NCBI GenBank assembly: GCA_035290625.1
Contig: DATDTY010000018.1
Location: forward strand, 1-32,905
Direction of reading: 5' to 3'
Length of the DNA stretch: 32,905 nucleotides
DNA from: Candidatus Nanoarchaeia archaeon
Lineage (GTDB): Archaea; Nanobdellota; Nanobdellia; Woesearchaeales; DATDTY01
This document shows, one piece after another, positions 1 to 22,417 of this stretch. The position numbers were made by a program, and so were the translations under genes. The stretch's first letter is position 1, and the number at the start of each line of letters is the position of its first letter. The notes under the pieces are model-generated. The model did no database searches. It was not told the DNA's origin and worked only from the letters and a program-made list of their open reading frames with translations.

Positions 1-623
1 GTGACCTCCTCCCCGCCCTAAAGGGCGGGGCTTCCTGCGCTAACTGAACACCACGTTGTGGTGTGCTTCCTGATTCTTGATATAGGCCTCACAAACGGCA
101 AGATCATTCACTCCTACCGTCGCTGAATAACTGCTCGGCGCCCAGAAATGCCTCTTGGGGTAGCGCAAGGCAACGTGCTCGCGGTTGCGAAAGATAAGGT
201 AGCTTGAACGGCCCTTCAACAACGCAAGCGCCTGCGAATCAGTCATGCCATTCGGCAGCGTCGCCAGCGAGTGCACATGCTCCGGAAGAACACTCAACAC
301 GCGAAACACAATCCCGTGCTCGTGTGCTGCCTTGCGAATCGCAGCAGCCACAAGATTTTTAATCTCCAGCCTCTGCATCATCTTGTAGCGATACTTCGTG
401 CACCACTCAAAGTGCCAAAAATTCATCGTCACCTTATGGCTCAACCGCTTCATGCTGTTCATGCTCTCGTCCTCCGGCGGAAGAGAGCTCACGCTACTTT
501 GGATTGGTAGTGCGTGCGCAGTTTCGTCCGCCAGCTTGCTGGCGGCGAAGCCGCCACAAAAATGTTTCTATGGAGAAACGCCCTAAAGGGCGGGGGTTTA
601 AACCCTAGCTCGCTACGCTCGCT
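1..623 (-). mobile_element. IS200/IS605-family element, TnpA only (IS200-like)
   Basis: Y1 transposase flanked by the same subterminal hairpin CGCCC-TAAA-GGGCG (within 11..30 and at 579..592). The minus-strand right end reads GAAG-hairpin-AGGAGGTCAC, ending at position 1. The left end has AAAC before the hairpin and a TTAG target (ctaa 624..627). Confidence 0.85.
40..492 (-). CDS. tnpA: IS200/IS605 HUH (Y1) transposase
   Basis: HFEWCTKYR, HUH motif EHVH, LKGRSS, FWAPSSY..TVG and catalytic Tyr in YIKNQ. The true start may be a downstream Met. Confidence 0.95.
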   Translation of the reverse strand: MSSLPPEDESMNSMKRLSHKVTMNFWHFEWCTKYRYKMMQRLEIKNLVAAAIRKAAHEHGIVFRVLSVLPEHVHSLATLPNGMTDSQALALLKGRSSYLIFRNREHVALRYPKRHFWAPSSYSATVGVNDLAVCEAYIKNQEAHHNVVFS

Positions 624-8886: not shown

Positions 8887-9333
8887 TTACGAAACAAGAA
8901 TCCTTCTCTCCTTCGGAACATAATTCAGGACTTTTCCTTCAACTGCCTTTCCGCAACCAAGGATGTCCTTATGATGCTTGATGATTTGGTATCCTTCAGC
9001 CTTGCTTGAGATTGTCTCTCCACGAAGCCATTGGCTGGCTTCGCTGTCTGTCACTTCAAGAACATTCTTCTTCGCCTTTGCTGCGATAAGCTGGCTTCCT
9101 TCAATGGAAAGCCGGATTCCGTCTGGCCGGATCTCCCCAAAGTAGAGGCCAGCACGGTCGATTCTGAGTTTCTTTGCGTCTATATCGGCCACATCCTTGG
9201 TGAGCAGGAACACCTTGTCTTTCTCATTCTTCAGGAAGGCTGCATCTATCTTGCCTGTGAAGCTGAATTGGGACTCAAGCTGAGCCATGATTGCCTTCAC
9301 TTCACGTGTGTTGAGGAATTTGAGCTGCTGCAT
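8887..9333 (-). CDS. NIP7-like / PUA-domain ribosome biogenesis RNA-binding protein
   Basis: GLYFG...IRLSIEGSQL...A..WLRG...ILGCGK...VLNYVPKERR. Confidence 0.75.
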   Translation of the reverse strand: MQQLKFLNTREVKAIMAQLESQFSFTGKIDAAFLKNEKDKVFLLTKDVADIDAKKLRIDRAGLYFGEIRPDGIRLSIEGSQLIAAKAKKNVLEVTDSEASQWLRGETISSKAEGYQIIKHHKDILGCGKAVEGKVLNYVPKERRILVS

Positions 9334-9378
9334 TGGTGTTAGAGACTGCCAGTACTATAAATTAGTTTTTATTGAGAA

Positions 9379-9534
9379 AGCAGCGTTCAAAATCTCCTGG
9401 GTTGCCATCGGCTCGCCTAATCTTTCTAAGGAATAAAGCTGACATCCCCGAGGGGGCAAGTCCCCCTGTCAGCTGTGCATCTGCCTGTAAAGAGGCTCGC
9501 AAGAATGATGGCAACCTTCATTTTGAACGCTGCC
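9379..9534. mobile_element. Structured MITE-like element, copy E1
   Basis: TIR AGCAGCGTTCAAAAT/ATTTTGAACGCTGCC; direct repeat TATTGAGAA at 9370..9378 and 9535..9543; core CCCCGAGGGGGCAAGTCCCC at 9446..9465. Confidence 0.8.
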
Positions 9535-9588
9535 TATTGAGAAACTTGTGAGGTTTAGAAAAAAGCATTAAAAAAGAAAAAATGAGCC

Positions 9589-10206
9589 TTACTTTGCGTA
9601 AGGCTGCCTGTGGGCATATTTTTCAAGGGTTGGCTGCTTAGATCTATTCAATAGATCAACCATATCACTGGTCGTCATCTTGGATGGGTCTACTATGTCC
9701 TCCAGACCGATGTGCTTCACAAGATCAGCAGCGTGCTCTTGCTTCAGACCACTATACCCTACCTGAAGGATTTGCTGTAAAGCAGCGTTACGGCCTTTCT
9801 CTGTGTCTTTAAGGAATGCTTGAACGCTGAATTCAGGACCAAGAGCTTCTACTGTCTGGTCAAAGTCTGAAGGTGTTACACCATAAAATCCATTAGCTAC
9901 ACCGCCTGCTTGGAATATATTCCAAGTTGATGTATCTGCTTTAAGCGCAGCCCCAAGACGATTTTTGATCTTGGCACCGAATGCGCTCTTTAGAGCAGCT
10001 TTCTTACCCGGATCAGACAGGTTTGTATAGTTCAGTTCTTCTGTAGCGGGATCGTAGAGCGTTTCCATAGCAGCATCATAAAGTGCTTGCTCGACTACGC
10101 CTGATCTTCCAGCTACTACTCTTTGCGCCTGTTCAGTTAGAGCGAGCGCATCCTTGAAGTCGGAATCTTTTCCTTCAGTTATATCTGCCTTTTTACCTTT
10201 TGTCAT
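9589..10206 (-). CDS. Hypothetical protein
   Basis: 205-aa ORF with GGGGTA RBS-like sequence and a BRE/TATA at 10261..10277. Confidence 0.8.
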   Translation of the reverse strand: MTKGKKADITEGKDSDFKDALALTEQAQRVVAGRSGVVEQALYDAAMETLYDPATEELNYTNLSDPGKKAALKSAFGAKIKNRLGAALKADTSTWNIFQAGGVANGFYGVTPSDFDQTVEALGPEFSVQAFLKDTEKGRNAALQQILQVGYSGLKQEHAADLVKHIGLEDIVDPSKMTTSDMVDLLNRSKQPTLEKYAHRQPYAK

Positions 10207-10260
10207 GTTTTACCCCCACATTGGTATGTGTATTTTGTTATTACTATATAGTAATACAAC

Positions 10261-10277
10261 TTATATATAAATGTTTC
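10261..10277 (-). promoter_or_regulatory. Putative BRE/TATA promoter for 9589..10206
   Basis: GAAACATTTATATATAA on the minus strand, 55 bp upstream of the ATG. Confidence 0.6.
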
Positions 10278-10510
10278 GATTTAATAGGGGCTGTAAAGGT
10301 AAGATTTGCTTGTTTTAGCGTGTGGTGAATTTCTCTGCTTATAAGGCTTTTGGAAGCTGTTCTTTTACAGTGGTAATCGGCTGGTTTTGATTGGCGAATC
10401 GTGGAGAAATGCGCAGTAAGGCTTACCATTTACAATGAGAAAATGGAATGTAAAGGGTAAGGCTTGCGGGTGGAAAGCTATATTAAGCCGGAAAACAAGC
10501 GTTTCTTGAC

Positions 10511-10885
10511 ATGACCCTCACAAACAAACAACGGTACATGCTGTTTATCCTCGGAGAGTATTATAAGAAGGAGAGGGGCAGGCTGAAGAAGAGTTTTCTC
10601 GATATTGCAATCTCAAAGCCGGTGTTCATCGACCTTGTGCTCAGCTCCGGGCTGGTCTCCAAGAAGAGCAGGGCTGTGTACAAGAACTTGGAGGTGTTAG
10701 AGAAGAAGAAGTTGATCTTTTATGAGAACAGGATGCTTAAACTGACTGAACAGGGATTCAAGAGATTCGGGGAGCTTGAGGATGCTATCTCTCCCTATCT
10801 GACAGCAATGCGGATTATCCGCGGCGGGAAGGCAAAAGCAAAGAAGAGCCAGACGATATTCAGCTATTTGGGAAGGATGGTGTAA
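10511..10885 (+). CDS. Winged-helix DNA-binding protein
   Basis: LTNKQRYML...SKKSRAVYKNLEVLEKKKLI...LKLTEQG. Confidence 0.7.
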   Translation: MTLTNKQRYMLFILGEYYKKERGRLKKSFLDIAISKPVFIDLVLSSGLVSKKSRAVYKNLEVLEKKKLIFYENRMLKLTEQGFKRFGELEDAISPYLTAMRIIRGGKAKAKKSQTIFSYLGRMV

Positions 10886-10962
10886 GGGGCTTAAAAAACG
10901 TTATTCTTGCAACCTTTAAAAATCGAAGCTTTTAAATAATAACCTTTAACTTTCTAAGACCA

Positions 10963-12897
10963 ATGGGTAAAAAAACAAAGAAGGAAGCGGGGGCTGATTC
11001 TAAAAAAGAAGAGAAGAAAGAGCAGGATCCGTTTCTCGCAGGGATCAGCCAGCTGCCGAAAGAGGCCCAGGAGAAGCTTAAGGCGATAAAGGCGAAACTC
11101 GACACATTCAAGGAAAAGGTTCTCAGCAAGTTTGACAAGTATGTCGCAGGGATTGCATTATTGCCGCCAAAGAGGAAATTGCAGGACCGGCCGGCACAGC
11201 AGGCTCATGAAGCGATTCAGGAAAACCAGAAAGCGACCCTTGTTCCGGAAAAAGTAGAAGTACAGGGAGAGAAAAAAGAGGAGCCTGAGATTTCTGTCTT
11301 AGTCCTGGTTGATGATTCTGACTCCAGCAAGATGCCAAAGTATGAGCTCAAAGACAAGCTTTCCAAGATCATCCAAACTATGGCGACAGAGGTGGACAAG
11401 GAGATTAAGGTAGAGGTCATCATCCTGTCAGAGCTTTGGCAGAGCTGCTTTGACGGAAAATATGACCTTCTGCAGCTCATTGCGGTTTCTGCCGCTGTGT
11501 ACGATAAGGGCATGCTGAGCGCAATCAAGATAGCTGAAGTCCACAAGAATATGGTGTTGAGGAAGTTTGAGAAGTACATTGTGAGCTATGTCTTAGCCGG
11601 AAGCCTTGTGCAGGGAAGGGCCACTAAGGAATCTGATATCGATGTCTGGATTGTGATTGATGATACTGATGTCAAGAAGATGACCCGGATTGAGCTCAAG
11701 GATAAGCTCAGGGCGATCATCATTGGGATGGGGATAGAGGCGGGCGAGCTCACAGGGATCAAGAACAAGATCAACATCCAGGTGTATATCCTCACTGAGT
11801 TCTGGGACAGCCTCAAGGAGGCAAATCCTATCATCTTTACTCTGCTCAGGGATGGTGTGCCCTTTTATGATCGTGGAATCTTCATGCCATGGAAGCAGCT
11901 TCTGAGGATGGGGAGGATCAAGCCGAGCTGGGAAGCCATTGACATGTTCATGAAATCAGGGGATCAGATGGTGTCCAGGGTCAAATACAAGCTGAAGGAG
12001 ATTGGTATGGAGGATGTGTTTTACGCCTTATTGACTCCTTCACAGGCTGCAATCATGATGATGGGGATAGCACCGCCTGCTCCGAAAGAGACTCCTGACC
12101 TGATGCGGGAGCTGTTTGTGAAAAAGAAGGCAATGATTGAAGAGAAGTACATCAAGATACTGGAAGATGTCATCAAGCTCAGGAAGGACCTGGAGCATGG
12201 AACAAAGAAAGAGGTTGAAGGGAAGGAGATTGATGGCCTTATCCGGGATGCTGACAGCTTCCTGAAACGGATCAAGAAGCTCTTTGGCCAGATTGATGAG
12301 ATGCGCGAGGCTGAGAGCATGGTCCATCTCTCTGACAGCATTCTTGGCACAACACGGGATGCGTTGCGGCTTGAAGGAGTAGAAGGGGTTGCCGACAAGG
12401 ATCTTGTTGCTGCATTTGAGGACAAGTTTGTGATCCAGGGAAGGATTCCTGCAAGGCATCTGAGGATGCTGAAGGATCTGCTGAAGGCAAAGAAGGATTA
12501 TGACGCCAAGAAGCTTACGAAGCAGGAGGTTGAGAAGCTGAAGAAGGACTCAGGAGGCTTCATCAGGTATATGGTAGAGCATATGCAGCGAAGGCGCGGG
12601 AGAGAGATTGAGCGGGCCAAAGTCAGGGTGAAGTACGGGGAGAAGTTTGCAGATGTCATCCTGCTTGGAGAGCAGGCATTCATCATCCATGATATCGATG
12701 CTGAGCAGAAGCAGATTTCCAAGGCGAAGATCAAAGAAGATGGAAGCCTGGGAGCGCTGGCAACGTCAAATCTTGAAGAATTTGAGAAGGATCTTGCCAA
12801 GGTGACTATTCCACCCAAGGTCTTTATCAAGGAGCCGATCTTTGAAAACCTTAAGAATATCTTTGGGCATGATATTGAGATTCTGGTGAATTACTAA
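10963..12897 (+). CDS. Tandem minimal nucleotidyltransferase + HEPN-like domain protein
   Basis: Intact NTase motif GSLVQG...SDIDVWIVIDD, preceded by a degenerate NTase repeat (VLVLVDD). Helical HEPN-like region with RKDLEH (RX4H). Confidence 0.8.
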   Translation: MGKKTKKEAGADSKKEEKKEQDPFLAGISQLPKEAQEKLKAIKAKLDTFKEKVLSKFDKYVAGIALLPPKRKLQDRPAQQAHEAIQENQKATLVPEKVEVQGEKKEEPEISVLVLVDDSDSSKMPKYELKDKLSKIIQTMATEVDKEIKVEVIILSELWQSCFDGKYDLLQLIAVSAAVYDKGMLSAIKIAEVHKNMVLRKFEKYIVSYVLAGSLVQGRATKESDIDVWIVIDDTDVKKMTRIELKDKLRAIIIGMGIEAGELTGIKNKINIQVYILTEFWDSLKEANPIIFTLLRDGVPFYDRGIFMPWKQLLRMGRIKPSWEAIDMFMKSGDQMVSRVKYKLKEIGMEDVFYALLTPSQAAIMMMGIAPPAPKETPDLMRELFVKKKAMIEEKYIKILEDVIKLRKDLEHGTKKEVEGKEIDGLIRDADSFLKRIKKLFGQIDEMREAESMVHLSDSILGTTRDALRLEGVEGVADKDLVAAFEDKFVIQGRIPARHLRMLKDLLKAKKDYDAKKLTKQEVEKLKKDSGGFIRYMVEHMQRRRGREIERAKVRVKYGEKFADVILLGEQAFIIHDIDAEQKQISKAKIKEDGSLGALATSNLEEFEKDLAKVTIPPKVFIKEPIFENLKNIFGHDIEILVNY

Positions 12898-12999
12898 AAC
12901 AGTTTATGGCTTTATTTCTGAGGGTTTCACGCTTGGTTCTGTAATAGGTTAAGCTCGGCCTGACCTTAACATTGTTTTCTGAATGGGCCTGCCTGGATA

Positions 13000-13202
13000 G
13001 GCTCTGCCGAAATCCTTCGCTTCGCGGCAGTGCCGGTACTCAAAAATGCTTTGTATTTTTGGTCGCTCCTTCGGAGCAGCTCGGTCTCGGCACGTTTACG
13101 AATATATCGACATATCCCCGAAGGTGGCAACCCCCTTGTCGATGCTCATTCTTTGGAATACTGACCTCGCGAATGGGCACTGCACCGGATTTCAGCAGAG
13201 CT
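13000..13202. mobile_element. Structured MITE-like element, copy E2
   Basis: TIR GGCTCTGCCGAAATCC/GGATTTCAGCAGAGCT; imperfect direct repeat GCCTGGATA (12991..12999) / GCCGGATA (13203..13210); core CCCCGAAGGTGGCAACCCCC at 13116..13135. Confidence 0.8.
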
Positions 13203-13258
13203 GCCGGATAGAAATCTTTATATATAAATTACCTTATATGTAGCTTTTAGGATACATA

Positions 13259-13438
13259 ATGGGTACTAAAGAGATAGGATCCGCAAAGATACATGTAAAG
13301 TTCACAAGAGAGCAGCTTGGGATAATCAGCAATCTCAAAGGAATTCTTGGCGGCACGAATGCTGAAGTTGTAAGGACAATCTGCATGGCGTATCTGTCTG
13401 AGAAGAACTTTCTTTCAAAGAAGAGGGGCGCTCCATGA
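13259..13438 (+). CDS. Ribbon-helix-helix (CopG-like) regulator, 59 aa; absent from the ORF track
   Basis: MGTKEIGSAKIHVKFTREQLGIISNLKGILGGTNAEVVRTICMAYLSEKNFLSKKRGAP; TATA at 13217; ATGA overlap with the next gene. Confidence 0.75.
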   Translation: MGTKEIGSAKIHVKFTREQLGIISNLKGILGGTNAEVVRTICMAYLSEKNFLSKKRGAP

Positions 13439-16400
13439 GGAATGCAGCGGCAATAAGGAGCGTGGAAAAGGGCAAGAGCGGGGCAAACGCATCTCGAAGG
13501 ATGGTCTATGCTTCATTGCTCGGCCTGATTCTGGCTGTTTTCTTATTTACGCCGCTTTTTTGGAGGCTTGATCCTACAGGGTATATTGTTGCAAAGCGAA
13601 CAACGACATATTCCCAGGAAGTGGGATGGGAGATAAATGAAAGCTCTGATGCTCTTTGGCTGGTAGAGCACCCGCAGGAGATAGTCCATATTGCAGTGAG
13701 CGGAAGCATAGCAAAGACTGGAAGCGCTAAGATATTTATTGAGGGATCAGATGGGCGCTACCTGATTTTTGACAGCAGCAGATTAGAGGAAAAAGGATTA
13801 TGGATAGTAACTGGCGCAGCTGTTCCCAATGAGAGTTTTGCCAATGAAACGACGTCTAATGAAACGATGTTAAACCTATCAGCCAACACTGGTTTTTCAA
13901 ATGAGACAAGCATCCAAACAAATATCACTTCAGCAAATATCACTCGGGTTCAGGAAGATAGGGGTTCTGCACCAACGCCGGCATCCGTTCTGGAAAGGAC
14001 CACTTTCAGCAATGCGTGCATTGATACCTGCGATGTAGCCGGATTCAACAGCAGCTCATATGTTCTTGTTTTTGAGATTAATGGCACTTATGTGCATATA
14101 GACGGCATTTCCTATTCCATTGAGAGGGAGGTTCTCAATAAACCACCTATTTTTGCCGGCATTCCCAACCAGACTATGATGATGGGCACGAATCTTTCTT
14201 TGAAGTTGAGTGATTATGCGCTTGATCCCGACAACGACTCCCTGACCTTCTCGTCATATAAGGCGGATAATTTGTCTGTCGTGATCGAAGGGGACCTGGT
14301 TACGCTGCTGCCTGAGCCGGGGTTTGAAGGAACGCGGTATATCTTCTTTATAGCTAATGACAGCATTGATGTTGCGGTTTCGCCTCTTGTTGAGGTTTCT
14401 GTAAGCAGAATTGCAAGACAGAGAATAGAAGGAGAGACTTTTCAGAGTTCTGCCAGGATTGGCAAACCTGTAAAATGGGTTAAGAGGATCAGAGGAGAGA
14501 AGGGCAGGGAGAACATAAGCACTGAGCTTCCAAGATTAGCGGGAAATATTTCTGTCAGGAAGGTGAATGAGCTGACTGGCGAGGAAAGAGAGCTTGAGAT
14601 TGCTGTTCAAAATGAAAGAGAAGTACAAGAGGTTCCTGCCATTATAACCGGCCAGGCAGTCAGTGAGGACAGCATATCAGGGGGTTCTGGATTGATTTCG
14701 AGATTTTTTGCATCCATTTCAGGAGCCAACAGGATCACGGGAAGGGCTGTTGAAGTGGTTCAGGAGCAGGAGAAAGAGAATATCACTGTGAACATAGACG
14801 GGGAAGCGGTTGAAGAGGAGGATGAATTTGTCATTGAATATTATACTGATGCCCCGTATGCAGAGGAGCGCAGGATAGATGGAAGATCCAAGGAGATAAC
14901 CGTTATCGGGCCTGATGAGGTTGGGTATGAGAATGTACTGGCTTTCTCAGAGCTTCCTTTTGAGGTTAGTGATGAGAGAAAGATAAAGCTGTATCATAGT
15001 GTTGACGGACTTAAGCAGGAAAGCGAGTTCACAGCATATGATAATGATGGAGACGGATTGTATGAGCGCATAGAATGGGTCGTTCCTCATCTGAGCGAGC
15101 AGGTTTATGAAATCGTCATTATAACAAAGGCTGAGCACCTGGATGAGAATAAGGCTGTTGTAAGCGATATATATGAAAGCGTTAAGGAACAGGAAGGAAT
15201 CTGGTCTGAGCCCATCCCTCCAAACCATTATGTTAGGGCCACATTTGAACAGCCGCTTGACTCTGCAAAAGACATAACCCTATACGCAAGATCTGCCGGC
15301 AACAGCTCAGCTTCTCTGGAGGTTTATACTGAGAACGGAGAGGGGATCATAGCATCAATTGGAAACATAACCGCAGAAAACAGCTATACGATGCCCCTTA
15401 TAGGATTGTCAGAAAGCACAGCAACTGTTGATATAAAAGTCCTTGATGGAACAATCGAGATCGACTATATCGTCGATCCCAGCCTGATCTCTGTATCAAC
15501 AGCAACTATTCCCCGAGTGATAAATATCCAGGGAAAACTGACAAATGCAGCAAATGCAGCAGTCTCTGACGGGACCTATGGGTTTGTGTTTACCCTGTAT
15601 AATGTCTCAAGCGGCGGCACGGGATTGTGGAATGAGAGCCACAATATCACAACCGTGAGCGGGGTGTATGATGCTGACCTTGGCAGAAAAACTTCCATGA
15701 ACCTTGAATTTGACCAGAGTTATTACCTTGGAATCAAGGTAGAGAGCGATGCAGAGATGACACCGAGGATAAACTTAACAACAAATCCGTGGGCATTCCG
15801 CTCTTTTGTCGCGTATGAGCTCGCAAGCACTGATGGATGGATATCATTGAAGGGGAATGTGAACGCAACCCAGAACCTTACAGTTGTTGAGAACCTGAAT
15901 GTAACTGGGAACATAACAGCAGCACAGTTTATTGGAGATGGAAGCCTGCTGACGGGGATTAGCAGCGGAGGAGGGAATACTACTACTGAAATGGCTTCTG
16001 CCCTGGACAACACGAGCATTGTTCGGGAGTATCAAGGGTATTTCAAAAGCGAAGTCAATCTGACCCAATTATTGGATGATAATTACAGGAATATATCAAG
16101 CAGGGTTGGCAACACAACGGCAGAGATACGGGAGCAGTTCCTTAACTCAAGCAATGTCACGATCAGAGATGGGGTTATTTCTATCAATGAAACGTTCCTG
16201 AGGGCAGGGGATGCAGCAGGCGGAAACACTTCTGCTGAGATGATAGATGCAACTACCGGGAATGTTAACTCTACTTCATGGTTGAAAGCTGGCGCAAACA
16301 TTATCTTAAAGGTTTTTTCAGATTTTGTTGGCATTGGCACATCCGGGCCATCATCTCGGCTGGATGTCAATGGAAGCGTTAACGCAACCCAGTACCTGAT

Positions 16401-18939
16401 TAACGGGACTGACATCTATAACGTATTTACTGAGCTGACTGATACAAAGGGCAATACCACATCAGAGATTGCCTCTGCCTTGGACAACACAACCATCTTA
16501 AGAGATTACCAGAAGCATGGCAATACCACGGCAGAGATATGGGAGCAATTCGGCAATTCCAGTAATATAACCATCATAAATGGAATTATTTCTATCAATG
16601 CTTCTTTTGTTGACGAAGGGCATGTTTTTGGAAATACGTCTGCTGAGATTGTTTCCGCTATGGCAAGCGAAATATCCAGCCTTAATACTTCCCTGAATAA
16701 TTCTTTCAGATCAGAAGACACGAACCTTAACGCTTCTATGAAAGAGTATGCAAGGAGCGAGGTTATTTTATTGAACACTTCCTTAAATAATTCCTTCAGA
16801 TCAGAAGACACGAACCTTAATGCATCAGCACAGGCTTATGCAAGAACTGAAGCTGCCAATCTGAATGCTTCTGTGAAGGCGTATGCAGACAATGCTGATT
16901 CACTTTTGAATGTTTCTATGAGGAGTTTGGGGTTCTTTAACAGCTTATCAAACATAACAGGGTATTTGAATATATCAAATGTGAAGATCACTGGCATTGC
17001 TAATTTCAGCGATGTGAATGTGACTGGCGGATTGTATGTGAGGGACAAAGTAGGCATTGGAACAACAGCGCCATCCCATACATTAACCGTAGCCGGGACT
17101 ATGAATGTATCAGGCAATACCCTGATTCTTGGAGAGCTGAATACAACAGGGAGAACAAACTTTAATGATGTAAATATCTCAGGAGTGTTTGACGCAGGGT
17201 TTCGCATTGCGGCTCCTGACAGGGAGGCTGTTACACAGAACCTCTGGATTCCACGATGGCCGGACTTGCAGTATGTGATTATGCAGGATTACCAGGACGA
17301 GCTTGCATACGCTGATATGTTTGCAGATAACATATCTGTTTCTCCAGCTGTTGAGGGCGGAACATCAATCAACAATATTTTCCGTGATGATGCAACGTGG
17401 GCGCAATTTAATTCTGGCGGATCCCCCTATCCAATAATAATAGATGTTAATTTGACAAGCAATCCGATTACTGCCAAGGCCAGCAGCAAATTCAATCTTG
17501 GGCTTACATTTAGGTCTACAGCTGCTGCAAACCCCAACAGGATTTCTGTGGAATTGTATAATTCCAGCGATGAATGGGTTCTCGCAACGAACACAACGTA
17601 TAACAGCACCGGCTCAAATGATGTCTGGCTTTCCCCGAGCCTTACCGGCCTTTCTGATACAAGCAGTGGTATCCGGGGCTTGAGGGTAACATTATACGGC
17701 ACCAATCCCCTGCCTGCAAATTTCCTTCTTCAGAGGATGATACTCTACCACCGAACTGCTCCGTGGGATCCCTGGAAGCTCCACATTGGCGGAGGGATGA
17801 TGTACGGCGGGGTGAATTTTTCAGGAGTCACCCAAGATATCACCACCCCTGCAGGAGAAGATCTCGCCTTGATGCCTGGAGGAAAAGTGACTGTTGTTGG
17901 GGATTTGAATGTCACTGGAACATCTTATATCTATGCAACTGAGGGAGTGATACAGCCAGTCTACGGGAGTGATGATGGATTAGCTTTGTATCTGCCATTC
18001 AACACAAATGAGACAACGAACCAACAGTATGATTATAGCCCTTACGGAAATGACGGGCTCATGGTAGGAGGGGTTGTCTGCAATTCAACGTATGGAAAGT
18101 ATGGGGTTGGATGCAATTTTTATGGATCTGGCGATTATATAGATTCAGGAAGGGATTTAGTAGCTGAGCTGGATCAGGTTAATGAGTTTACGCTCTTGGC
18201 GTGGATCAAACCAGCAAATGCTGACAAGTTTATGGGGATAATGGGGACAGGCAATCCCTATAGCGCTGACGGTGAGGGATTTATACTTGATTATAGAGGG
18301 AGTGTTGCTGGAGACCCAATACGGTTTCAATTGAATAATGATTCAGGAACCGCAACAACCATAACTGTGAATATTGGAGATCTTTCCAACCAATGGATCC
18401 ATGTTGCTGCTGTGGTAAACAGAACAGGGAATGTTGATGTGTATCTGAATGGCTCTCGAAAGGGAGGAGGCAGCATAGCTGTAAACTCTGGCGGGACAAT
18501 TAATAGCGGGACGGGTCTGGTTGTTGGTGTGTATGGCGAGGCATTAGGCACAGCAGACTTCAACGGCACAATTGATGAGCCTATGATTTATAAAAGAGCG
18601 TTATCACCGGATGAAATAAGAACGCAGTATCTCAGAGGCATTAAGGCTCATGGAACTCTCCAGGCAGATGAATTTAAGATTGCCAATACAACAGGCACTT
18701 TATCCTTAAAACTGAACCAGACCGATTTCCTATTCTCTACAGCTGGCATTGAAAGGTTTAGGATTGATAGCGCAGGAAAGGTAGGGATTGGAACATCAAC
18801 ACCAACGACTAAACTGGATGTGTTCGGTCAGGTCAATTCTACGGGGTATATTGCAAACGCATCAGTCGGATTTACAGGAAGCTGCGCAAGCACAACAACA
18901 ATAACAGTGGTGGGAGGGATCATTACTGCATGCAGTTAA
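13435..18939 (+). CDS. Giant membrane-anchored surface glycoprotein (Ig/cadherin-like, fibre-like repeats, LamG domain)
   Basis: N-terminal TM followed by TGY; DPDND cadherin-like motif; INIQGKLT..G.Y.F.LY..GG..LW.E module; VGIGT..P...LDV.G repeats; LamG (FTLLAWIKP...WIHVAAV...YLNG...FNGTIDE..IY.RALS..EI); very many N-x-S/T sequons. Confidence 0.85.
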   Translation: MRNAAAIRSVEKGKSGANASRRMVYASLLGLILAVFLFTPLFWRLDPTGYIVAKRTTTYSQEVGWEINESSDALWLVEHPQEIVHIAVSGSIAKTGSAKIFIEGSDGRYLIFDSSRLEEKGLWIVTGAAVPNESFANETTSNETMLNLSANTGFSNETSIQTNITSANITRVQEDRGSAPTPASVLERTTFSNACIDTCDVAGFNSSSYVLVFEINGTYVHIDGISYSIEREVLNKPPIFAGIPNQTMMMGTNLSLKLSDYALDPDNDSLTFSSYKADNLSVVIEGDLVTLLPEPGFEGTRYIFFIANDSIDVAVSPLVEVSVSRIARQRIEGETFQSSARIGKPVKWVKRIRGEKGRENISTELPRLAGNISVRKVNELTGEERELEIAVQNEREVQEVPAIITGQAVSEDSISGGSGLISRFFASISGANRITGRAVEVVQEQEKENITVNIDGEAVEEEDEFVIEYYTDAPYAEERRIDGRSKEITVIGPDEVGYENVLAFSELPFEVSDERKIKLYHSVDGLKQESEFTAYDNDGDGLYERIEWVVPHLSEQVYEIVIITKAEHLDENKAVVSDIYESVKEQEGIWSEPIPPNHYVRATFEQPLDSAKDITLYARSAGNSSASLEVYTENGEGIIASIGNITAENSYTMPLIGLSESTATVDIKVLDGTIEIDYIVDPSLISVSTATIPRVINIQGKLTNAANAAVSDGTYGFVFTLYNVSSGGTGLWNESHNITTVSGVYDADLGRKTSMNLEFDQSYYLGIKVESDAEMTPRINLTTNPWAFRSFVAYELASTDGWISLKGNVNATQNLTVVENLNVTGNITAAQFIGDGSLLTGISSGGGNTTTEMASALDNTSIVREYQGYFKSEVNLTQLLDDNYRNISSRVGNTTAEIREQFLNSSNVTIRDGVISINETFLRAGDAAGGNTSAEMIDATTGNVNSTSWLKAGANIILKVFSDFVGIGTSGPSSRLDVNGSVNATQYLINGTDIYNVFTELTDTKGNTTSEIASALDNTTILRDYQKHGNTTAEIWEQFGNSSNITIINGIISINASFVDEGHVFGNTSAEIVSAMASEISSLNTSLNNSFRSEDTNLNASMKEYARSEVILLNTSLNNSFRSEDTNLNASAQAYARTEAANLNASVKAYADNADSLLNVSMRSLGFFNSLSNITGYLNISNVKITGIANFSDVNVTGGLYVRDKVGIGTTAPSHTLTVAGTMNVSGNTLILGELNTTGRTNFNDVNISGVFDAGFRIAAPDREAVTQNLWIPRWPDLQYVIMQDYQDELAYADMFADNISVSPAVEGGTSINNIFRDDATWAQFNSGGSPYPIIIDVNLTSNPITAKASSKFNLGLTFRSTAAANPNRISVELYNSSDEWVLATNTTYNSTGSNDVWLSPSLTGLSDTSSGIRGLRVTLYGTNPLPANFLLQRMILYHRTAPWDPWKLHIGGGMMYGGVNFSGVTQDITTPAGEDLALMPGGKVTVVGDLNVTGTSYIYATEGVIQPVYGSDDGLALYLPFNTNETTNQQYDYSPYGNDGLMVGGVVCNSTYGKYGVGCNFYGSGDYIDSGRDLVAELDQVNEFTLLAWIKPANADKFMGIMGTGNPYSADGEGFILDYRGSVAGDPIRFQLNNDSGTATTITVNIGDLSNQWIHVAAVVNRTGNVDVYLNGSRKGGGSIAVNSGGTINSGTGLVVGVYGEALGTADFNGTIDEPMIYKRALSPDEIRTQYLRGIKAHGTLQADEFKIANTTGTLSLKLNQTDFLFSTAGIERFRIDSAGKVGIGTSTPTTKLDVFGQVNSTGYIANASVGFTGSCASTTTITVVGGIITACS
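15970..16850 (+). repeat. Internal coding repeats in the surface protein
   Basis: GNT[TS]xE modules duplicated (ASALDNT..RxYQ twice; GNTTAEI.EQF.NSSN.TI twice); 90-bp tandem unit LNTSLNNSFRSEDTNLNAS at 16684 and 16774. Confidence 0.85.
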
Positions 18940-19043
18940 TGGCCGAGTTGGATTATTGGATGATATACGGATATGCAGGAATCAGGAGGTTACGTAGAGA
19001 TCATATTCAGAGCCGTATCATTTCATAACATTGGGGAGAGGGT

Positions 19044-20171
19044 ATGAAAAGGACAGTATTGCTTGCAATATCTCTAGCGCTGCTAGCTATTCCGCTAGCT
19101 TTCTCTGCATCGACTGGCAGCACGAATTACGATACAAGTATAGTGGTTGGCGGAGGAGGGACAGATGATGCGGCTTCTGATAATTATAAGACCTCTATTG
19201 TGTCAGGCCAGATTATAACCGGGTCTCCAAGTTCAACGAATTACAGATCCAATACAGGGTTCTCTTACACCACTGAAGTCACTGCCCAGGCTGCTGCCGC
19301 AGCTGAAGCCCCAAGCGGAGACGCAGGAGGCGGAGCAGGGCCTGAAAGGCGGAGCTTTGAGGTCATTCCCTCTTCTTTCAGGATAGAGCTGCTTCCGGGC
19401 CAAACAAAGGTGCAAGAGATGTCTATACGGAATACCGGCTCACAGCCCCTGGAGTTTAGCATTAAAAACGATGACCTGCAGGATCTGGTGTTATTGAATA
19501 TTTACGAATTTAGTCTTGCAAACTACAATGATGAGCAGATGATAAAGGTTGCATTTACAGGGTCTAAAGAAGGGCTGTTTGAAGGGGATATTACAGTGGT
19601 GGCGGGCTCATTGGCTAAGACAGTTCCTCTTGCTATAAATGTCAGCAAGAAGCCATTGTTTGATATCAAGACAGATGTGCTTACAAAAGAGGTAGGGAAG
19701 GGCGAGCCTGTAAAAGCGAGTATAGCCATGCTCAACTTCGGAGAGCTGCCTGTTGACGTGTACTTGAATTATTCCATAAAGGATGAAGGGGGGGAGATTA
19801 TAGAAGGAAAATATGAGATGATAGCAGTTCCATTAAACCGCATCGTGGAGAGGGAATTGCCTGCACCTGATATGGAAGGGGGGTACTTCTTCCATGCTGA
19901 GATTTATTATGGGGATGAACGCGCAGAGAGTGAGGATTCATTCAGAGTTGTCTTCAAGGAAAAGGTTGAAGAAAAACCAGCTGAGAGATATTCTCCTCTG
20001 GAAGCGGATAGGACACTCTTGTTTATAGGGTTGCTTGGGGGGGCACTGATTGTGATCGTCTTGTTGATTGTGATTATTATGTTATTGGTGCTCATACTGA
20101 TGAGAAAAGGAAGGGGTGAGAGAAGAAAACGTGCTAGGATGCCTCCTGCTCCGAAACCGAAGAAAGCCTGA
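19044..20171 (+). CDS. Secreted Ig-like domain protein with C-terminal membrane anchor
   Basis: Signal peptide, Ser/Thr/Gly-rich N-terminus, beta-sandwich-like segments, long hydrophobic C-terminal helix and basic tail. Confidence 0.8.
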   Translation: MKRTVLLAISLALLAIPLAFSASTGSTNYDTSIVVGGGGTDDAASDNYKTSIVSGQIITGSPSSTNYRSNTGFSYTTEVTAQAAAAAEAPSGDAGGGAGPERRSFEVIPSSFRIELLPGQTKVQEMSIRNTGSQPLEFSIKNDDLQDLVLLNIYEFSLANYNDEQMIKVAFTGSKEGLFEGDITVVAGSLAKTVPLAINVSKKPLFDIKTDVLTKEVGKGEPVKASIAMLNFGELPVDVYLNYSIKDEGGEIIEGKYEMIAVPLNRIVERELPAPDMEGGYFFHAEIYYGDERAESEDSFRVVFKEKVEEKPAERYSPLEADRTLLFIGLLGGALIVIVLLIVIIMLLVLILMRKGRGERRKRARMPPAPKPKKA

Positions 20172-20192
20172 ACCCGGGCAAACCATCCAGCC

Positions 20193-20399
20193 GGTGGCAT
20201 TGAAAAGTCATGCAGCGCCCTCTTGTGAGCCATTATAACGGAGCGGCGGCACAGCGACAAGGGAGTTGCCCCCTTCGGGGAATGTCGCTATTCTGACCGA
20301 ATAGCTCATGGCGAACTGCTCCGCAGGAGCGACCAAAAATGCGAAGCATTTTTGAGTACTGGCGCTGCCGAGCGAAGCGAGCAACTTTTCAATGCCACC
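20193..20399. mobile_element. Structured MITE-like element, copy E3 (opposite orientation to E1/E2)
   Basis: Perfect 16-bp TIR GGTGGCATTGAAAAGT/ACTTTTCAATGCCACC; direct repeat ATCCAGCC at 20185..20192 and 20400..20407; core GGGAGTTGCCCCCTTCGGGG at 20261..20280. Confidence 0.85.
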
Positions 20400-20446
20400 A
20401 TCCAGCCGCAACTCTTTTAAACGCAAAACCTTTTTCGTTGTAAACT

Positions 20447-20562
20447 GCGGGAGTAGCAAAGCCTGGTCAAATGCGCAGGACTTAAGATACGAGACAAGGA
20501 AAGTAGGAGATAAGGCATCCTGTCGGTTAGTCCGTTCGCAGGTTCGAATCCTGCCTCCCGCA
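20447..20562 (+). tRNA. tRNA-Leu(UAA) with a 30-nt intron at 37/38 (20487..20516)
   Basis: Acceptor GCGGGAG/CTCCCGC, CAGGA/TCCTG anticodon stem, long variable arm, GCAGG-TTCGAAT-CCTGC; bulge-helix-bulge with helix CTTA/TAAG and bulges AGA/GCA. Confidence 0.93.
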
Positions 20563-20592
20563 TTACCTGTTAAGTAGATTTTTTAGTTCTTA

Positions 20593-20757
20593 GGCTTTTT
20601 GCAAAGGCTCGCTTGCGTTCGGGGTAGCGTCGGTTCGCACGCGATACTATTTGCTCCATTGACATCTCCCGGATGGAGAACAACCCCTCGGTCAATGCGC
20701 CTTCCTGTTTTTAAGGTGCTCACAATAGTGACGCTACCCTTCCCTTTGCAAAAAGCC
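20593..20757. mobile_element. Structured MITE-like element, copy E5 (diverged core)
   Basis: TIR GGCTTTTTGCAAAGG/CCTTTGCAAAAAGCC; stems GGGTAGCGTC/GACGCTACCC, GCAC/GTGC, CATTGAC/GTCAATG; core TCTCCCGGATGGAGAACAACCCC; no clear direct repeat. Confidence 0.75.
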
Positions 20758-20826
20758 TTGAGGAAGTTAACGGCTTTGCTCAACATTACCGCTAGATTTA
20801 TAAATCTGGTTTCTCAAGAGAGGGGA

Positions 20827-21339
20827 ATGGATGATCACAAAGTATTTCTTGTTTTTCTGATAGGAACGCTGCTAGCGTATGCTGTGCTTTTTACTGCAGA
20901 GATTACTGGCTTTCTTGTGAAGGAGGAGCAGCTTTCGCTGGATATCAAGGAGACTGGCAGCATCAGGAGGCATGCTCCAGGAGATACTGTGACCTTGGAG
21001 ATAAGGTTGCGGTCCAGCCAGCAGAGCTATCCTGCTGATGTGATCATCTTCTATTCAATCCAAGACAAGGACTTCCATGACCTCAGCTACCGAGAGGACA
21101 CCTTTGCTGTCACAGGGATGGAATCATCATTTACGAGGCAGATCAGGATTCCAGATGTTAAGGATGGACAATACTATACCTTTGCTGAAGCTCGGCTTGC
21201 GGCTGATGAGAGCACTCGCTCACAGGATCGGGTTGTTGTTTATATTTCAGGAGGACAGCCAACAAGAATTATTTATTTAGGCATCCCCCTTGGCCTGCTC
21301 TTCATGCTGAGCGTTGCTGCTCTGAAATATCGCCGCTGA
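20827..21339 (+). CDS. Small membrane-anchored Ig-like surface protein
   Basis: Start MDDHKV at 20827, with TATA at ~20798 and GAGGGG upstream. N-terminal TM with ITGFLV, C-terminal TM. The longer ORF call runs through element E5. Confidence 0.75.
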   Translation: MDDHKVFLVFLIGTLLAYAVLFTAEITGFLVKEEQLSLDIKETGSIRRHAPGDTVTLEIRLRSSQQSYPADVIIFYSIQDKDFHDLSYREDTFAVTGMESSFTRQIRIPDVKDGQYYTFAEARLAADESTRSQDRVVVYISGGQPTRIIYLGIPLGLLFMLSVAALKYRR

Positions 21340-22162
21340 AGCGTTCTGTGTTGGTTGTATGAAGCTTGAGAGTATCCACGATTGTTGAGATGTCGTTGGC
21401 AGAACGGCTGATGAGGGTGTTGTGAATCTTCCATGGGAACTGTTCTGTAACAGATAAGCAGCCTGCATAGTCGATGTGGCTTTGGATGAATTCACCTTTT
21501 TTCAGAAACGGCAGCCCATCCTGCTCTGCGAGATGGACTTCTGGAAGGCTGCCTGTTTCCTTATAGATGAAGCCAAGCAGAGCCTGAGCAGCAAGATCAA
21601 CAAGCGGCATGTGGCTTGCTATCATAAGGATGCGACGAGCAGGAATTGGGTTTCCAGCATATTCCAAAAGAGCCTCGTTGACGTTTTCAAGGATTGCAAG
21701 AGCCATTGCAGCTCCGCATAAGCCTTCCATCCGGGATGGAATGCCATCAATCTTCGAAGGAAAATAATGGGTTGTGGCCCAGGAGAGTATATAGCCGCTT
21801 ATGTTGCCTTCCTGGAGGCGGGGGTAATATTGGTGATACTGATCAGTGCCAAGCAGCTTCTTTGCCTCAAGGATGGCATCAAGGCCTGTCCTATGATCCT
21901 CTTTATATGAGATAGCATCAAGATGTATCTCCGCGCCACCAAAAAAGTATTCAATGGTCTCTTTTGTTCGCGGATAGCCTGAGTGGATTGCCAGTATAGA
22001 GTCATACGGTGGATGCAAGAGATTATTCCCTTGCTCCAGAAGAGTTTGCTGGCCGCGGGTGTTCACATGGGCAGCCCTGCTTACTTCGAGGGTTTCTCCT
22101 TGGAAACGCTGCCTTTCCCCGCTGCGAAATATGAAGATATCCAGCGAAGACAATGAGGACAT
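21302..22162 (-). CDS. Histidine phosphatase-superfamily-like protein with degenerate active site
   Basis: IFIFRSGE (cf. RHGE), SGYPRTKET (cf. SP.xRA.ET), LMIASH (cf. VSH). Confidence 0.55.
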   Translation of the reverse strand: MSSLSSLDIFIFRSGERQRFQGETLEVSRAAHVNTRGQQTLLEQGNNLLHPPYDSILAIHSGYPRTKETIEYFFGGAEIHLDAISYKEDHRTGLDAILEAKKLLGTDQYHQYYPRLQEGNISGYILSWATTHYFPSKIDGIPSRMEGLCGAAMALAILENVNEALLEYAGNPIPARRILMIASHMPLVDLAAQALLGFIYKETGSLPEVHLAEQDGLPFLKKGEFIQSHIDYAGCLSVTEQFPWKIHNTLISRSANDISTIVDTLKLHTTNTERFSGDISEQQRSA

Positions 22163-22208
22163 GCCTGAAGTGAATATGTTGGGTTTTATAAAACATTCCC
22201 ATAAAACA

Positions 22209-22370
22209 GGCTCAGTAGAAAGTCGATATTGCCGCCATTTTTGCGAGGCTCGACCAGGAAAGAAATTCGGAAGCGGAGGGAGTTGCCCCCTTCGGGGAGG
22301 TGCCGCTCCTAAATGAAACTTGCAAGAGCCGAGCTGGCGGCAATCGCGGAGCGAGACTTTCTACAGAGCC
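22209..22370. mobile_element. Structured MITE-like element, copy E4
   Basis: TIR GGCTCAGTAGAAAGTC/GACTTTCTACAGAGCC; perfect direct repeat CCATAAAACA at 22199..22208 and 22371..22380; core GGGGAGTTGCCCCTTCGGGG at 22278..22297. Confidence 0.88.
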
Positions 22371-22417
22371 CCATAAAACACCCGGGTTTTTAAAAGGGCT
22401 ATGCTTCTTTATGGCAC

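What the first reader, a model, noticed from the sequence alone, without database searches (positions are those of the whole stretch)
9379..22370. Five-copy family of non-coding elements sharing a covarying nested fold
Seen: five intergenic elements (9379-9534, 13000-13202, 20193-20399 rc, 20593-20757, 22209-22370 rc) share one architecture: TIR - P1 - G[C/T]TC - P2 - spacer - P3 - core CCCC-GAA-GGGG(G)CAACYCCC - P3' - spacer - P2' - TC[G/A]CRA - P1' - TIR. Stem sequences differ but pairing is kept, listed in that element order. P1: GGTTGCCATC/GATGGCAACC, GCAGTGCC/GGCACTGC, GCAGCGCC/GGCGCTGC, GGGTAGCGTC/GACGCTACCC, ATTGCCGCCA/TGGCGGCAAT. P2 5' arms: GCC, GGTC, GCCAT, GCAC, GGCTC. P3 5' arms: GCTGACA, ATCGACA, AGCGACA, CATTGAC, GGAGCGG. 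Inference: compensatory change with conserved joining residues implies selection on a folded single-stranded RNA or DNA, unlike ordinary decaying MITEs. I cannot match it by eye to tRNA, SRP, RNase P, known small ribozymes or common riboswitches. It may be an undescribed structured mobile element, and five copies in 13 kb suggests many genome-wide.
Basis: partly seen in the sequence, partly recalled or inferred. Interest (0 to 1): 0.92.

Follow-up and report, generated by a model that had tools for sequence, protein, structure and literature searches.

The report
Hairpin mini-transposons beside archaeal promoters
The five look-alike elements are copies of an abundant family of small non-coding transposons (MITEs) in a tiny DPANN-type archaeon that fold into a conserved rod and land just upstream of gene promoters; nothing shows that they are a new structured RNA.

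Summary
All five elements are where stated, share the nested architecture, and their stems covary far beyond controls (own genome plus relatives: 88.6% of cells paired against 69.4% in shuffles, 36 of 38 pairs with double changes; relatives only: 90.2% against 66.1%). The elements are MITEs. They have GGC...GCC inverted ends and 9-bp target-site duplications, lie at 178 loci (2.1% of the 1.37-Mb genome), and occur in 13 of 40 and 25 of 150 sampled genomes of the same order. Their ends resemble those of 0.9-1.0-kb IS5-family insertion sequences in relatives and in this genome. Pairing shows no strand preference: G:U 92 against A:C 83, subfamily consensus sequences are almost purely Watson-Crick, and both strands fold equally well. 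So the constraint acts on DNA complementarity, or on both strands, and there is no sign of an RNA read from one strand. No Rfam family matches. MITEs and parent ISs sit at a fixed distance (TATA box about 16 nt beyond the element end) upstream of outward-facing promoters, and the same target is reused in tandem. Earlier reports of this scan reached the same reading on other pieces of this genome. I checked its main points independently here. I rate it a new variant of a known kind, of moderate interest.

The parts
9379..9534 (+). MITE copy E1 (156 bp, short form); ends (A)GCAGCGTTCAAAAT...ATTTTGAACGCTGCC
   Evidence: (124.8 bits)
9370..9378 (.). Left copy of the E1 target-site duplication TATTGAGAA(A). 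The right copy is at 9535-9543(4).
   Evidence: read
9354..9361 (-). TATA-like box (TTTATAGT on the minus strand), 18 nt outward from the left end of E1 and 28 nt before the start codon of ORF 8887-9333 (-)
13000..13202 (+). MITE copy E2 (203 bp, long form). The flanking 9-mers CCTGGATAG (12991-12999) and GCCGGATAG (13203-13211) agree at 7 of 9 positions.
13037..13079 (+). Optional two-hairpin module of about 43 nt in the 5' arm of E2; absent from short-form copies
   Evidence: I1; one search shows contigs of other copies that skip the matching 42 nt in E3
13217..13224 (+). TATA-like box TTTATATA, 15 nt beyond the right end of E2
20193..20399 (-). MITE copy E3 (207 bp, long form with the 42-nt module at 20317-20359). 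Target duplication ATCCAGCC(G) at 20185-20192 and 20400-20408.
20415..20422 (+). TATA-like box TTTTAAAC, 16 nt beyond E3 and 25 nt before the intron-bearing tRNA gene (20447-20562)
20593..20757 (+). MITE copy E4 (165 bp). Its core variant CTCC-CGGAT-GGAG keeps the first hairpin by a double change. It has no recognisable target duplication and no TATA box at the usual distance.
   Evidence: (120.6 bits)
22209..22370 (-). MITE copy E5 (162 bp). Target duplication (C)CATAAAACA at 22199-22208 and 22371-22380.
   Evidence: (125.7 bits)
22184..22193 (-). TATA-like box (TTTTATAAAA read outward), 16 nt from E5, serving ORF 21302-22162 (-)
22387..22396 (+). TATA-like box TTTTTAAAAG, 17 nt from E5 and about 22 nt before the ATG of ORF 22418-23938 (+). 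E5 sits between two divergent promoters.

Best explanation
The five elements belong to a large family of non-autonomous DNA transposons (MITEs) of Woesearchaeota-type DPANN archaea. IS5-family DDE transposases supplied in trans most likely move them.

Each copy is a near-perfect 140-210-bp palindrome, a 'rod', bounded by GGC...GCC inverted repeats. Its interior does not come from the parent IS. That interior holds three covarying stems, conserved asymmetric junctions and a conserved C4-G4/5-C4/5 tip.

Shown:
- Insertion duplicates 9 bp of target.
- MITEs and parent ISs sit so that an outward-facing BRE/TATA promoter starts about 15-18 nt beyond the element end, that is 6-9 nt beyond the duplicated target.
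- The same target is hit repeatedly.
- Stem complementarity is maintained across dozens of lineages and many genomes.
- It is Watson-Crick complementarity with no strand preference.

Inferred:
- Lineages that keep transposing must keep the two arms complementary, because the substrate or an intermediate of mobilisation is a snap-back or cruciform DNA that puts both ends side by side.
- The conserved unpaired motifs and tip are protein-recognition features.
- The position next to promoters reflects target choice by the transposase (bent or TBP/TFB-bound DNA), sharpened by loss of harmful insertions.
For: MITE identity:
- 178 loci, 2.1% of the genome.
- The 9-bp register of flanking direct repeats: 13 exact and 20 with at least 8 of 9 matches among the 69 copies with GGC..GCC ends; per-position agreement is 34-45 of 69 in register 9 against 11-30 in registers 7, 8, 10 and 11.
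- In relatives, 18 of 68 copies have an exact 9-bp repeat.
- In the window, E1, E3 and E5 have perfect 8-10-bp duplications.

Parent ISs:
- L089:1081-2099 is 1019 bp, with an 18 of 18 TIR GGCTAATATGAAACCCTC, the TSD AAATAGAAG, and a 305-aa protein that hits NF033579 (IS5 family) at 145 bits, over the cut-off of 140.
- L090:1468-2369 is 902 bp with the TSD GTTAACTCC.
- L096 is a decayed 955-bp copy whose TIR GGCTCTGTCCAAAAT also occurs on MITEs.
- In this genome, C49:19040-20006 is 967 bp and its protein hits NF033579 at 98.9 bits (E 3.6e-28). An IS end at C28:34355 is followed by sequence 74% identical to the last 42 aligned residues of the L090 transposase.
- MITE and IS share only the 10-18-nt ends.

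No strand preference:
- G:U 92 against A:C 83; 75 against 110 in relatives.
- Consensus sequences of clusters with at least 2 members: 207 WC, 1 GU, 4 AC, 13 other.
- MFE -73.5 against -75.0 kcal/mol; the core strand is the more stable in 55 of 122 copies.

Promoter position:
- A TATA-like hexamer starts at +13..+20 outward on at least one side in 84 of 130 copies. In a control window at +33..+40 it occurs on 11 right and 6 left sides, and in 2.1% of random genome windows.
- 61 of 90 such sides have the start codon of an ORF of at least 50 aa 20-39 nt after the TATA start, against 29 of 160 sides without the motif.
- The pattern repeats in 46 of 68 copies from other genomes and at three of the parent IS copies: L089, L096 and C49.

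Target reuse:
- Tandem MITEs are separated by copies of one 8-9-bp target (C33:72974-73300). 5 of 8 adjacent pairs have gaps of 7-12 nt.
Against: - No transposition assay exists, and no empty site was seen. Contigs of four metagenome runs simply break at the repeats.
- TIR matches between the MITE subfamilies of this genome and the ISs found are approximate, and no IS with exactly the commonest MITE ends was recovered.
- The C49 transposase scores below the curated NCBIfam cut-off (98.9 against 140 bits).
- Known IS5/IS903-type transposition (recalled) needs no hairpin substrate, so the proposed role of the rod is inference only.
- 46 of 130 copies have no TATA-like motif at the usual distance.
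- Only about a third of copies keep a recognisable duplication.
- One-sidedness of the promoter signal could come partly from selection against harmful insertions and not only from target choice.
- Absence of a G:U excess does not exclude transcripts from both strands.
- ISfinder could not be searched.
Confidence: 0.8

Rival explanations
1. A strand-specific structured non-coding RNA (a ribozyme-, riboswitch- or guide-like RNA) that happens to be carried on, or spread as, a mobile element. On this reading the covariation reflects selection on the folded RNA.
For: - Strong covariation with conserved unpaired junctions and tip.
- Optional extra hairpins appear as modules in one arm, as in expansion segments of RNAs.
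- The core and junctions are asymmetric, so the two strands differ.
- Elements in low-GC relatives keep the fold at 38-48% GC.
Against: - No excess of G:U over A:C (92 against 83; 75 against 110).
- Consensus stems are pure Watson-Crick.
- Both strands fold equally well.
- Orientation relative to the adjacent promoter is random (40 against 33), and the element lies upstream of that promoter, outside its transcript.
- No internal TATA-like promoter was seen.
- No Rfam family matches even at E up to 10. The only overlap with an element is GA-cis at 18.1 bits against a gathering score of 34.7.
Confidence: 0.07
2. The copies have been taken over by the host as bidirectional insulators or 3'-end hairpins between genes. 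Read-through transcripts in either direction fold into the rod, which stops or stabilises the upstream message and shields the next promoter. Selection on the host side then keeps the stems.
For: - The copies lie between the end of one gene and the BRE/TATA of the next.
- Both strands fold equally, as a bidirectional element would need.
- Each 3' arm carries a T4-5 run from the conserved GAAAA of the ends.
- Within subfamilies, paired sites differ from the consensus half as often as unpaired sites (8.5% against 16.4%).
Against: - The same fixed position holds for the coding parent ISs, so position follows from targeting and needs no host function.
- The within-subfamily contrast mixes sub-lineage differences with decay of single copies, so it cannot show selection on individual copies.
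- Distribution across genomes of the order is patchy (13 of 40 and 25 of 150), as for a parasite.
- Archaeal termination depends on oligo-T tracts and not on hairpins (established knowledge, recalled).
Confidence: 0.12
3. The covariation needs no selection. Quasi-palindromes are 'corrected' by intramolecular template switching during replication, so a change in one arm is copied into the other. The fold would then be a by-product of palindromic DNA.
For: - Complementarity is Watson-Crick with no strand preference, which is what templated correction gives.
- Template-switch correction of quasi-palindromes is well documented in bacteria (recalled, not checked here).
Against: - It does not explain why the asymmetric junctions (GYTCG opposite CTCRCRA) and the tip stay unpaired and conserved in sequence across genomes of many families.
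- It does not explain why the palindrome is retained at all over such divergence (52 clusters at 85% identity among 85 copies).
Confidence: 0.15

Closest known systems
MITEs that share only their ends with IS5-family insertion sequences, in particular the IS903 group (9-bp duplication, GGC termini; features recalled from ISfinder, not checked against it)
   Same: - Small and non-coding, in many copies.
- Terminal inverted repeats starting with GGC, and a 9-bp target-site duplication.
- Ends resembling those of 0.9-1.0-kb ISs that encode an IS5-family DDE transposase.
   Different: - The interior is not a deletion derivative of the IS. It is a conserved rod that stays the same while the ends vary.
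- The terminal repeats are more variable than the core.
- Insertion lies at a fixed distance upstream of archaeal promoters.
Bacterial palindromic repeat elements that fold as hairpins (ERIC/IRU, Correia/NEMIS, RUP, BOX, REP and REPIN elements)
   Same: - Intergenic, abundant, able to fold into long hairpins.
- Compensatory changes that keep the hairpin are described for some of these (recalled).
- A 2024 review and a 2024 census treat such properties as typical of prokaryotic MITEs. I saw only the search listing and abstract of the review PMC10969869, and passages of the census PMC11602168.
   Different: - REP/REPIN elements are moved by Y1 (RAYT) transposases and make no target duplication, whereas these elements make 9-bp duplications and pair with DDE ISs.
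- The host is archaeal.
- The conserved asymmetric tip and junctions, and the promoter-proximal target.
Retrotransposons that read promoters (Ty3 and Ty1 at Pol III genes, Tf1 at Pol II promoters, Dictyostelium TRE elements; recalled)
   Same: Insertion at a narrowly fixed distance upstream of the transcription machinery's binding site, with repeated use of the same site and tandem arrays.
   Different: - Those are eukaryotic retroelements tethered by integrase-factor contacts.
- Here a prokaryotic DDE DNA transposon is involved, and any tether (TBP/TFB or DNA bending) is unproven.
Integron attC sites and IS200/IS605 ends (single-stranded DNA hairpins recognised by structure)
   Same: A conserved fold with little conserved stem sequence, and conserved unpaired bases. 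This is the best precedent for covariation in DNA rather than RNA.
   Different: - Those systems use tyrosine or HUH enzymes and make no target duplication.
- Nothing here shows that an IS5-type transposase acts on folded single strands.

Membership tests
MITE (miniature inverted-repeat transposable element) | Short (under about 300 bp), non-coding, multi-copy | tested here: met
   140-210 bp for most copies; 178 loci in 1.37 Mb. The ORFs that overlap the elements are short frames within the repeat.
MITE (miniature inverted-repeat transposable element) | Terminal inverted repeats | tested here: met
   131 of 178 loci have at least 12 of 14 complementary terminal bases. The TIR helix is 88.4% paired.
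MITE (miniature inverted-repeat transposable element) | Target-site duplication of fixed length | tested here: met
   The 9-bp register is favoured. 13 exact and 20 with at least 8 of 9 among 69 copies; 18 exact of 68 in relatives. Many copies have lost it.
MITE (miniature inverted-repeat transposable element) | Ends shared with an autonomous IS that could supply the transposase | tested here: met
   L089, L090 and L096 in relatives, and C49 and C28 in this genome, carry GGC...AAA-type ends like those of MITE subfamilies. The matches are close but not identical for the subfamilies of this genome.
MITE (miniature inverted-repeat transposable element) | Demonstrated mobility (filled against empty sites, or transposition) | tested here: inconclusive
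   No empty site was seen in the contigs of 4 runs, because contigs break at the repeats. Mobility is inferred from the duplications, the copy number and tandem reuse of one target.
IS5 family (IS903-like group) as the mobilising partner | DDE transposase of the IS5 family | tested here: met
   NF033579 at 145 bits (cut-off 140) for L089 and 98.9 bits for C49. PF01609 matches.
IS5 family (IS903-like group) as the mobilising partner | 9-bp duplication and GGC termini (ISfinder definition of the IS903 group, recalled) | tested here: met
   L089 has the TSD AAATAGAAG and L090 has GTTAACTCC; both start with GGC. Assignment to a group by phylogeny against ISfinder members was not possible.
Any Rfam RNA family | Score at or above the family's gathering threshold | tested here: not met
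   Only two tRNAs pass. At E up to 10, nothing credible lies on the elements.
Strand-specific structured RNA (generic) | Wobble-tolerant covariation and better folding on the functional strand | tested here: not met
   G:U 92 against A:C 83, 75 against 110 in relatives. MFE is equal on both strands.
Strand-specific structured RNA (generic) | A discrete transcript | not testable with these tools
   No RNA run holding this sequence is listed.
REP/REPIN elements with a RAYT (Y1) transposase | No target duplication; association with a Y1 transposase gene flanked by the repeats | tested here: not met
   9-bp duplications are present. The IS200-type Y1 gene at window 40-492 is flanked by a different 20-nt hairpin repeat (D13, 30, 53).

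The most novel reading that the evidence does not exclude
A lineage of IS5-family transposons in Woesearchaeota-type archaea reads promoters. Its transposase would integrate at a fixed position 6-9 bp upstream of the BRE/TATA, guided by TBP/TFB-bound or bent DNA. Its non-autonomous partners would be a separate, conserved rod-shaped DNA module with a C4-G5-C4 tip and asymmetric junctions. That module must fold, as a snap-back single strand or a cruciform, to be mobilised. This would be structure-dependent recognition by a DDE transposase, and would explain covariation in DNA.
Probability: 0.3. Interest if true: 0.7.

Novelty: new variant of a known kind. Interest (0 to 1): 0.45.

Why it matters
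What looked like a new class of structured RNA is a transposon family, so it should not be entered as an RNA gene. The family is still instructive in four ways.
- It makes up about 2% of a very small, streamlined genome and breaks its assembly: 27 of the 178 loci lie within 200 nt of one of the 168 contig ends.
- It shows clear covariation that can be explained without RNA. This is a caution for covariation-based RNA discovery in repeat-rich genomes.
- Its fixed position next to BRE/TATA boxes gives a free, genome-wide map of promoters in uncultured DPANN archaea.
- It suggests a promoter-targeting DNA transposon in archaea, which could be tested with purified proteins.

Tried and rejected
- **Rfam:** gathering thresholds and E up to 10 gave nothing on the elements.
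- **RNA-specific loops:** I first read the TTCG and GCAA loops as stable RNA tetraloops. Checking the register showed triloops (GCTCC-TTC-GGAGC) that are equally palindromic on the other strand, so I dropped this as evidence for RNA.
- **Alternative core hairpin:** the G-run can pair with the downstream C-run. There are no double changes for this pairing and only 2+2 for the upstream one, so the data do not decide.
- **Long TIR pairs in this genome:** I looked for pairs of MITE-type ends 300-4000 bp apart that enclose a transposase. The nine candidates were pairs of separate MITEs or ordinary genes.
- **Pfam searches of this genome:** PF01609 found only an unrelated IS1634-type element on C61 and PF12762 found nothing. 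This first suggested that the genome has no partner. tblastn with the relatives' transposases then found C49 and C28, so that reading was wrong.
- **Sequencing runs:** no RNA holder is listed.
- **Laying contigs of 4 DNA runs:** contigs end at the elements, and no contig joins across an empty site. The 42-nt 'skips' come from short-form copies elsewhere in the genome.
- **The search for related loci with one transposase in genome contigs:** only one partial relative was found.
- **REPIN/RAYT, attC-like and retroelement readings:** considered and rejected because of the regular 9-bp duplications and the DDE partners.
- **Within-subfamily substitution analysis:** it cannot separate selection on single copies from differences between sub-lineages.
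- **Not done or not available:** ISfinder is not available here. The supplementary MITE sequence files of PMC11602168 were not opened, and they may already contain members of this family.

Full report
**1. The observation**

The P1 arms, the junctions G[C/T]TCG and CTC[G/A]C[A/G]A, and the core CCCC-GNA-GGGG(G)-CAAC-YCCC read as described. Each element folds into a single long hairpin on either strand.

The family is large:
- The 20-nt core with up to 4 substitutions occurs 74 times in the 1.37-Mb, 84-contig genome that holds the window.
- A covariance model (R1: 161 positions, 38 pairs, built from 12 copies with my structure) gives 150 scored matches. That is the cap, out of 457 candidates.
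- An nhmmer profile gives 178 non-overlapping loci covering 28,888 bases, 2.1% of the genome. 27 of them lie within 200 nt of a contig end.
- Only the five reported copies lie in the window.

**2. Covariation is real**

| Alignment | Cells paired | Shuffled | Partners slid 1-3 columns | Pairs with changes on both sides |
|---|---|---|---|---|
| A3: 85 copies (74 own, 11 from relatives) | 88.6% | 69.4% (0 of 500 shuffles reach it) | 32.8-45.3% | 36 of 38 |
| A4: 72 matches in loci from at least 16 other genomes | 90.2% | 66.1% | not given here | 37 of 38 |

These alignments were fitted to the model, which favours the structure. An RNAalifold run on a plain MAFFT alignment of 12 copies also gave 21 of 28 predicted pairs with compensatory changes. 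The 85 copies fall into 52 clusters at 85% identity, so the family is old and diverse.

**3. The complementarity has no preferred strand**

- In the paired columns of A3 there are 2480 Watson-Crick cells, 92 G:U and 83 A:C. An A:C cell would be G:U on the other strand.
- In relatives the counts are 75 G:U and 110 A:C.
- Consensus sequences of clusters with at least two members have 207 Watson-Crick pairs, 1 G:U, 4 A:C and 13 other.
- Mean folding energy is -73.5 kcal/mol for the core strand and -75.0 for the other. The core strand is the more stable in 55 of 122 copies.

An RNA made from one strand should tolerate wobble pairs on that strand, and it does not. I first took the TTCG and GCAA loops for RNA tetraloops. 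In the correct register they are triloops that are palindromic on both strands, so I withdrew that point.

No Rfam family matches.

**4. They are MITEs**

- 131 of 178 loci have at least 12 of 14 complementary terminal bases, and most begin with GGC and end with GCC.
- Among the 69 copies with exact GGC...GCC ends, the flanking direct repeat is in the 9-bp register. 13 are exact, 20 have at least 8 of 9 matches, and per-position agreement is 34-45 of 69 against 11-30 in registers 7, 8, 10 and 11.
- 18 of 68 copies in relatives have exact 9-bp repeats.
- In the window: E1 has TATTGAGAA(A), E3 has ATCCAGCC(G), E5 has (C)CATAAAACA, E2 agrees at 7 of 9, and E4 has none.

**5. Partner insertion sequences**

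| Place | Length | Ends and duplication | Transposase evidence |
|---|---|---|---|
| L089:1081-2099 (relative) | 1019 bp | 18 of 18 TIR GGCTAATATGAAACCCTC; 9-bp TSD AAATAGAAG | 305 aa, NF033579 (IS5 family) 145 bits, cut-off 140 |
| L090:1468-2369 (relative) | 902 bp | TSD GTTAACTCC | 286-aa ORF; 28% identical to the L089 protein by tblastn |
| L096:1415-2369 (relative) | 955 bp, decayed | TIR GGCTCTGTCCAAAAT, also found on MITEs | broken frame |
| C49:19040-20006 (this genome) | 967 bp | TIR GGCTCGATTGCAAGTT | NF033579 98.9 bits, E 3.6e-28, below the cut-off |
| C28:34355 to contig end (this genome) | cut by the contig end | GGCTCTGTCCCGAAAGTC | 74% identical to the last 42 aligned residues of the L090 transposase |

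- The Pfam search of this genome had missed C49 and C28. It found only an unrelated IS1634-type element.
- MITEs and ISs share only their 10-18-nt ends. The rod interior is therefore a separate conserved module, not a deletion derivative.
- A related transposase lies in a contig titled Candidatus Woesearchaeota archaeon.
- The family was found in 13 of 40 other genomes of the same order, each from a different family. It was also found in 25 of 150 genomes sampled across the phylum, and every listed genome with a match is of the same order.

**6. Where they sit**

- Base composition of the flanks shows an A-rich stretch at +10..+13 and then a T-then-A-rich block at +16..+23, on both sides when read outward.
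- A TATA-like hexamer starts at +13..+20 on the right side only in 40 copies, on the left only in 33, on both in 11 and on neither in 46, of 130 copies. A control window at +33..+40 gives 11 and 6, and random genome windows give 2.1%.
- On 61 of 90 such sides, an ORF of at least 50 aa starts 20-39 nt after the TATA start. This is the spacing of leaderless archaeal genes. The figure is 29 of 160 for sides without the motif.
- The pattern repeats in 46 of 68 copies from other genomes. It also holds at the parent ISs L089, L096 and C49, and C49 has it on both flanks.
- In the window, four of the five elements obey it. E1 abuts the promoter of ORF 8887-9333. E2 abuts a TATA box at 13217. E3 abuts the promoter of the intron-bearing tRNA gene. 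E5 sits between two divergent promoters.
- Tandem elements are separated by repeated copies of one 8-9-bp target (C33:72974-73300: CAGCCAAT, CAGCCAAC, CAGCCCAG). 5 of 8 adjacent pairs have gaps of 7-12 nt. This argues for repeated choice of the same site and not only for survival of harmless insertions.
- Orientation of the core relative to the promoter is random (40 against 33).

**7. Mechanism**

Shown: these are MITEs with 9-bp duplications, IS5-family partners, promoter-proximal positions, and Watson-Crick complementarity that is maintained without strand preference.

Inferred:
- Only lineages whose arms stay complementary keep spreading, because mobilisation uses a folded form (a snap-back strand or a cruciform) that brings both ends together.
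- The conserved unpaired junctions and the C-G-C tip are recognition features.
- The transposase chooses bent or factor-bound promoter DNA.

Rivals:
- A strand-specific RNA (0.07).
- Host use as bidirectional insulators or 3' hairpins (0.12).
- Neutral template-switch correction of quasi-palindromes (0.15), which does not explain the conserved asymmetric loops.

**8. What is known**

- Four literature searches found no description of this family and no report of promoter-targeted IS insertion in archaea.
- In the 2024 MITE census PMC11602168 I saw passages only. It reports a Woesearchaea genome among the archaeal genomes with the highest MITE density, 105 per Mb, so members may sit in its supplementary files, which I did not open.
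- Earlier reports of this scan on other pieces of the same genome (e1-4724092, e1-930329, e1-930323) reached the same reading: IS5/IS903-type MITEs, a rod-like fold, and positions hugging promoters. I used them as leads and re-derived each point from my own calls.

**9. Verdict**

This is a new variant of a known kind (MITE), of moderate interest, mainly for the promoter-proximal targeting and as a case of covariation in DNA.

Noticed in passing
window 40-492 (-), with repeats at 14-33 and 579-598: An IS200/IS605-type Y1 transposase gene (PF01797, E 2.2e-20; NF033573, 71.8 bits). It is flanked on both sides by the same 20-nt hairpin-forming repeat CGCCCTAAAGGGCGGGG(C/G)TT in direct orientation. 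This is probably a small IS200-like element, unrelated to the MITE family.
   Followed up: partly
window 20447-20562 (+): A tRNA gene with a 33-nt insertion in the anticodon region (Rfam tRNA, 49 bits). ARAGORN did not report it. It is probably an archaeal intron-bearing tRNA. MITE E3 sits just upstream of its TATA box and E4 lies 30 nt downstream of it.
   Followed up: partly
window 22418-23938 (+): An archaeal Hel308-type helicase ORF that starts with the Helicase_C domain at residue 73 and has no N-terminal DEAD/ATP-binding domain. The MITE E5 and a divergent gene lie directly upstream. It may be a split or truncated helicase.
   Followed up: no
G000:C15:2072-2290; also C30 and C17: A second, different short element (about 219 bp) carries the exact terminal repeat GGCTCGATTGCAAGTT of the 967-bp IS at C49 but lacks the rod core. 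This would be another MITE family of the same IS. Several copies of the IS itself end at contig breaks (C25, C41, C42, C50, C74).
   Followed up: partly
G000:C33:72974-73360: At least two, and probably three, MITEs of different subfamilies lie in tandem. They are separated by copies of one 8-9-bp target (CAGCCAAT, CAGCCAAC, CAGCCCAG) next to a leftward TATA box.
   Followed up: partly
G000:C61 (L083) 271-1821: The whole 2.3-kb contig is essentially one IS1634-family element (NF033559, 267 bits), with ends unrelated to the MITEs.
   Followed up: partly
window 15850-16890 within ORF 13435-18939: Internal direct repeats of 60-80 nt at 70-80% identity (D1, D2, D4, D20) lie inside a 1834-aa surface-type protein that has a Laminin_G_3 domain. 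A second giant ORF (24680-29986, 1768 aa) carries fn3 and Ig-like domains.
   Followed up: no
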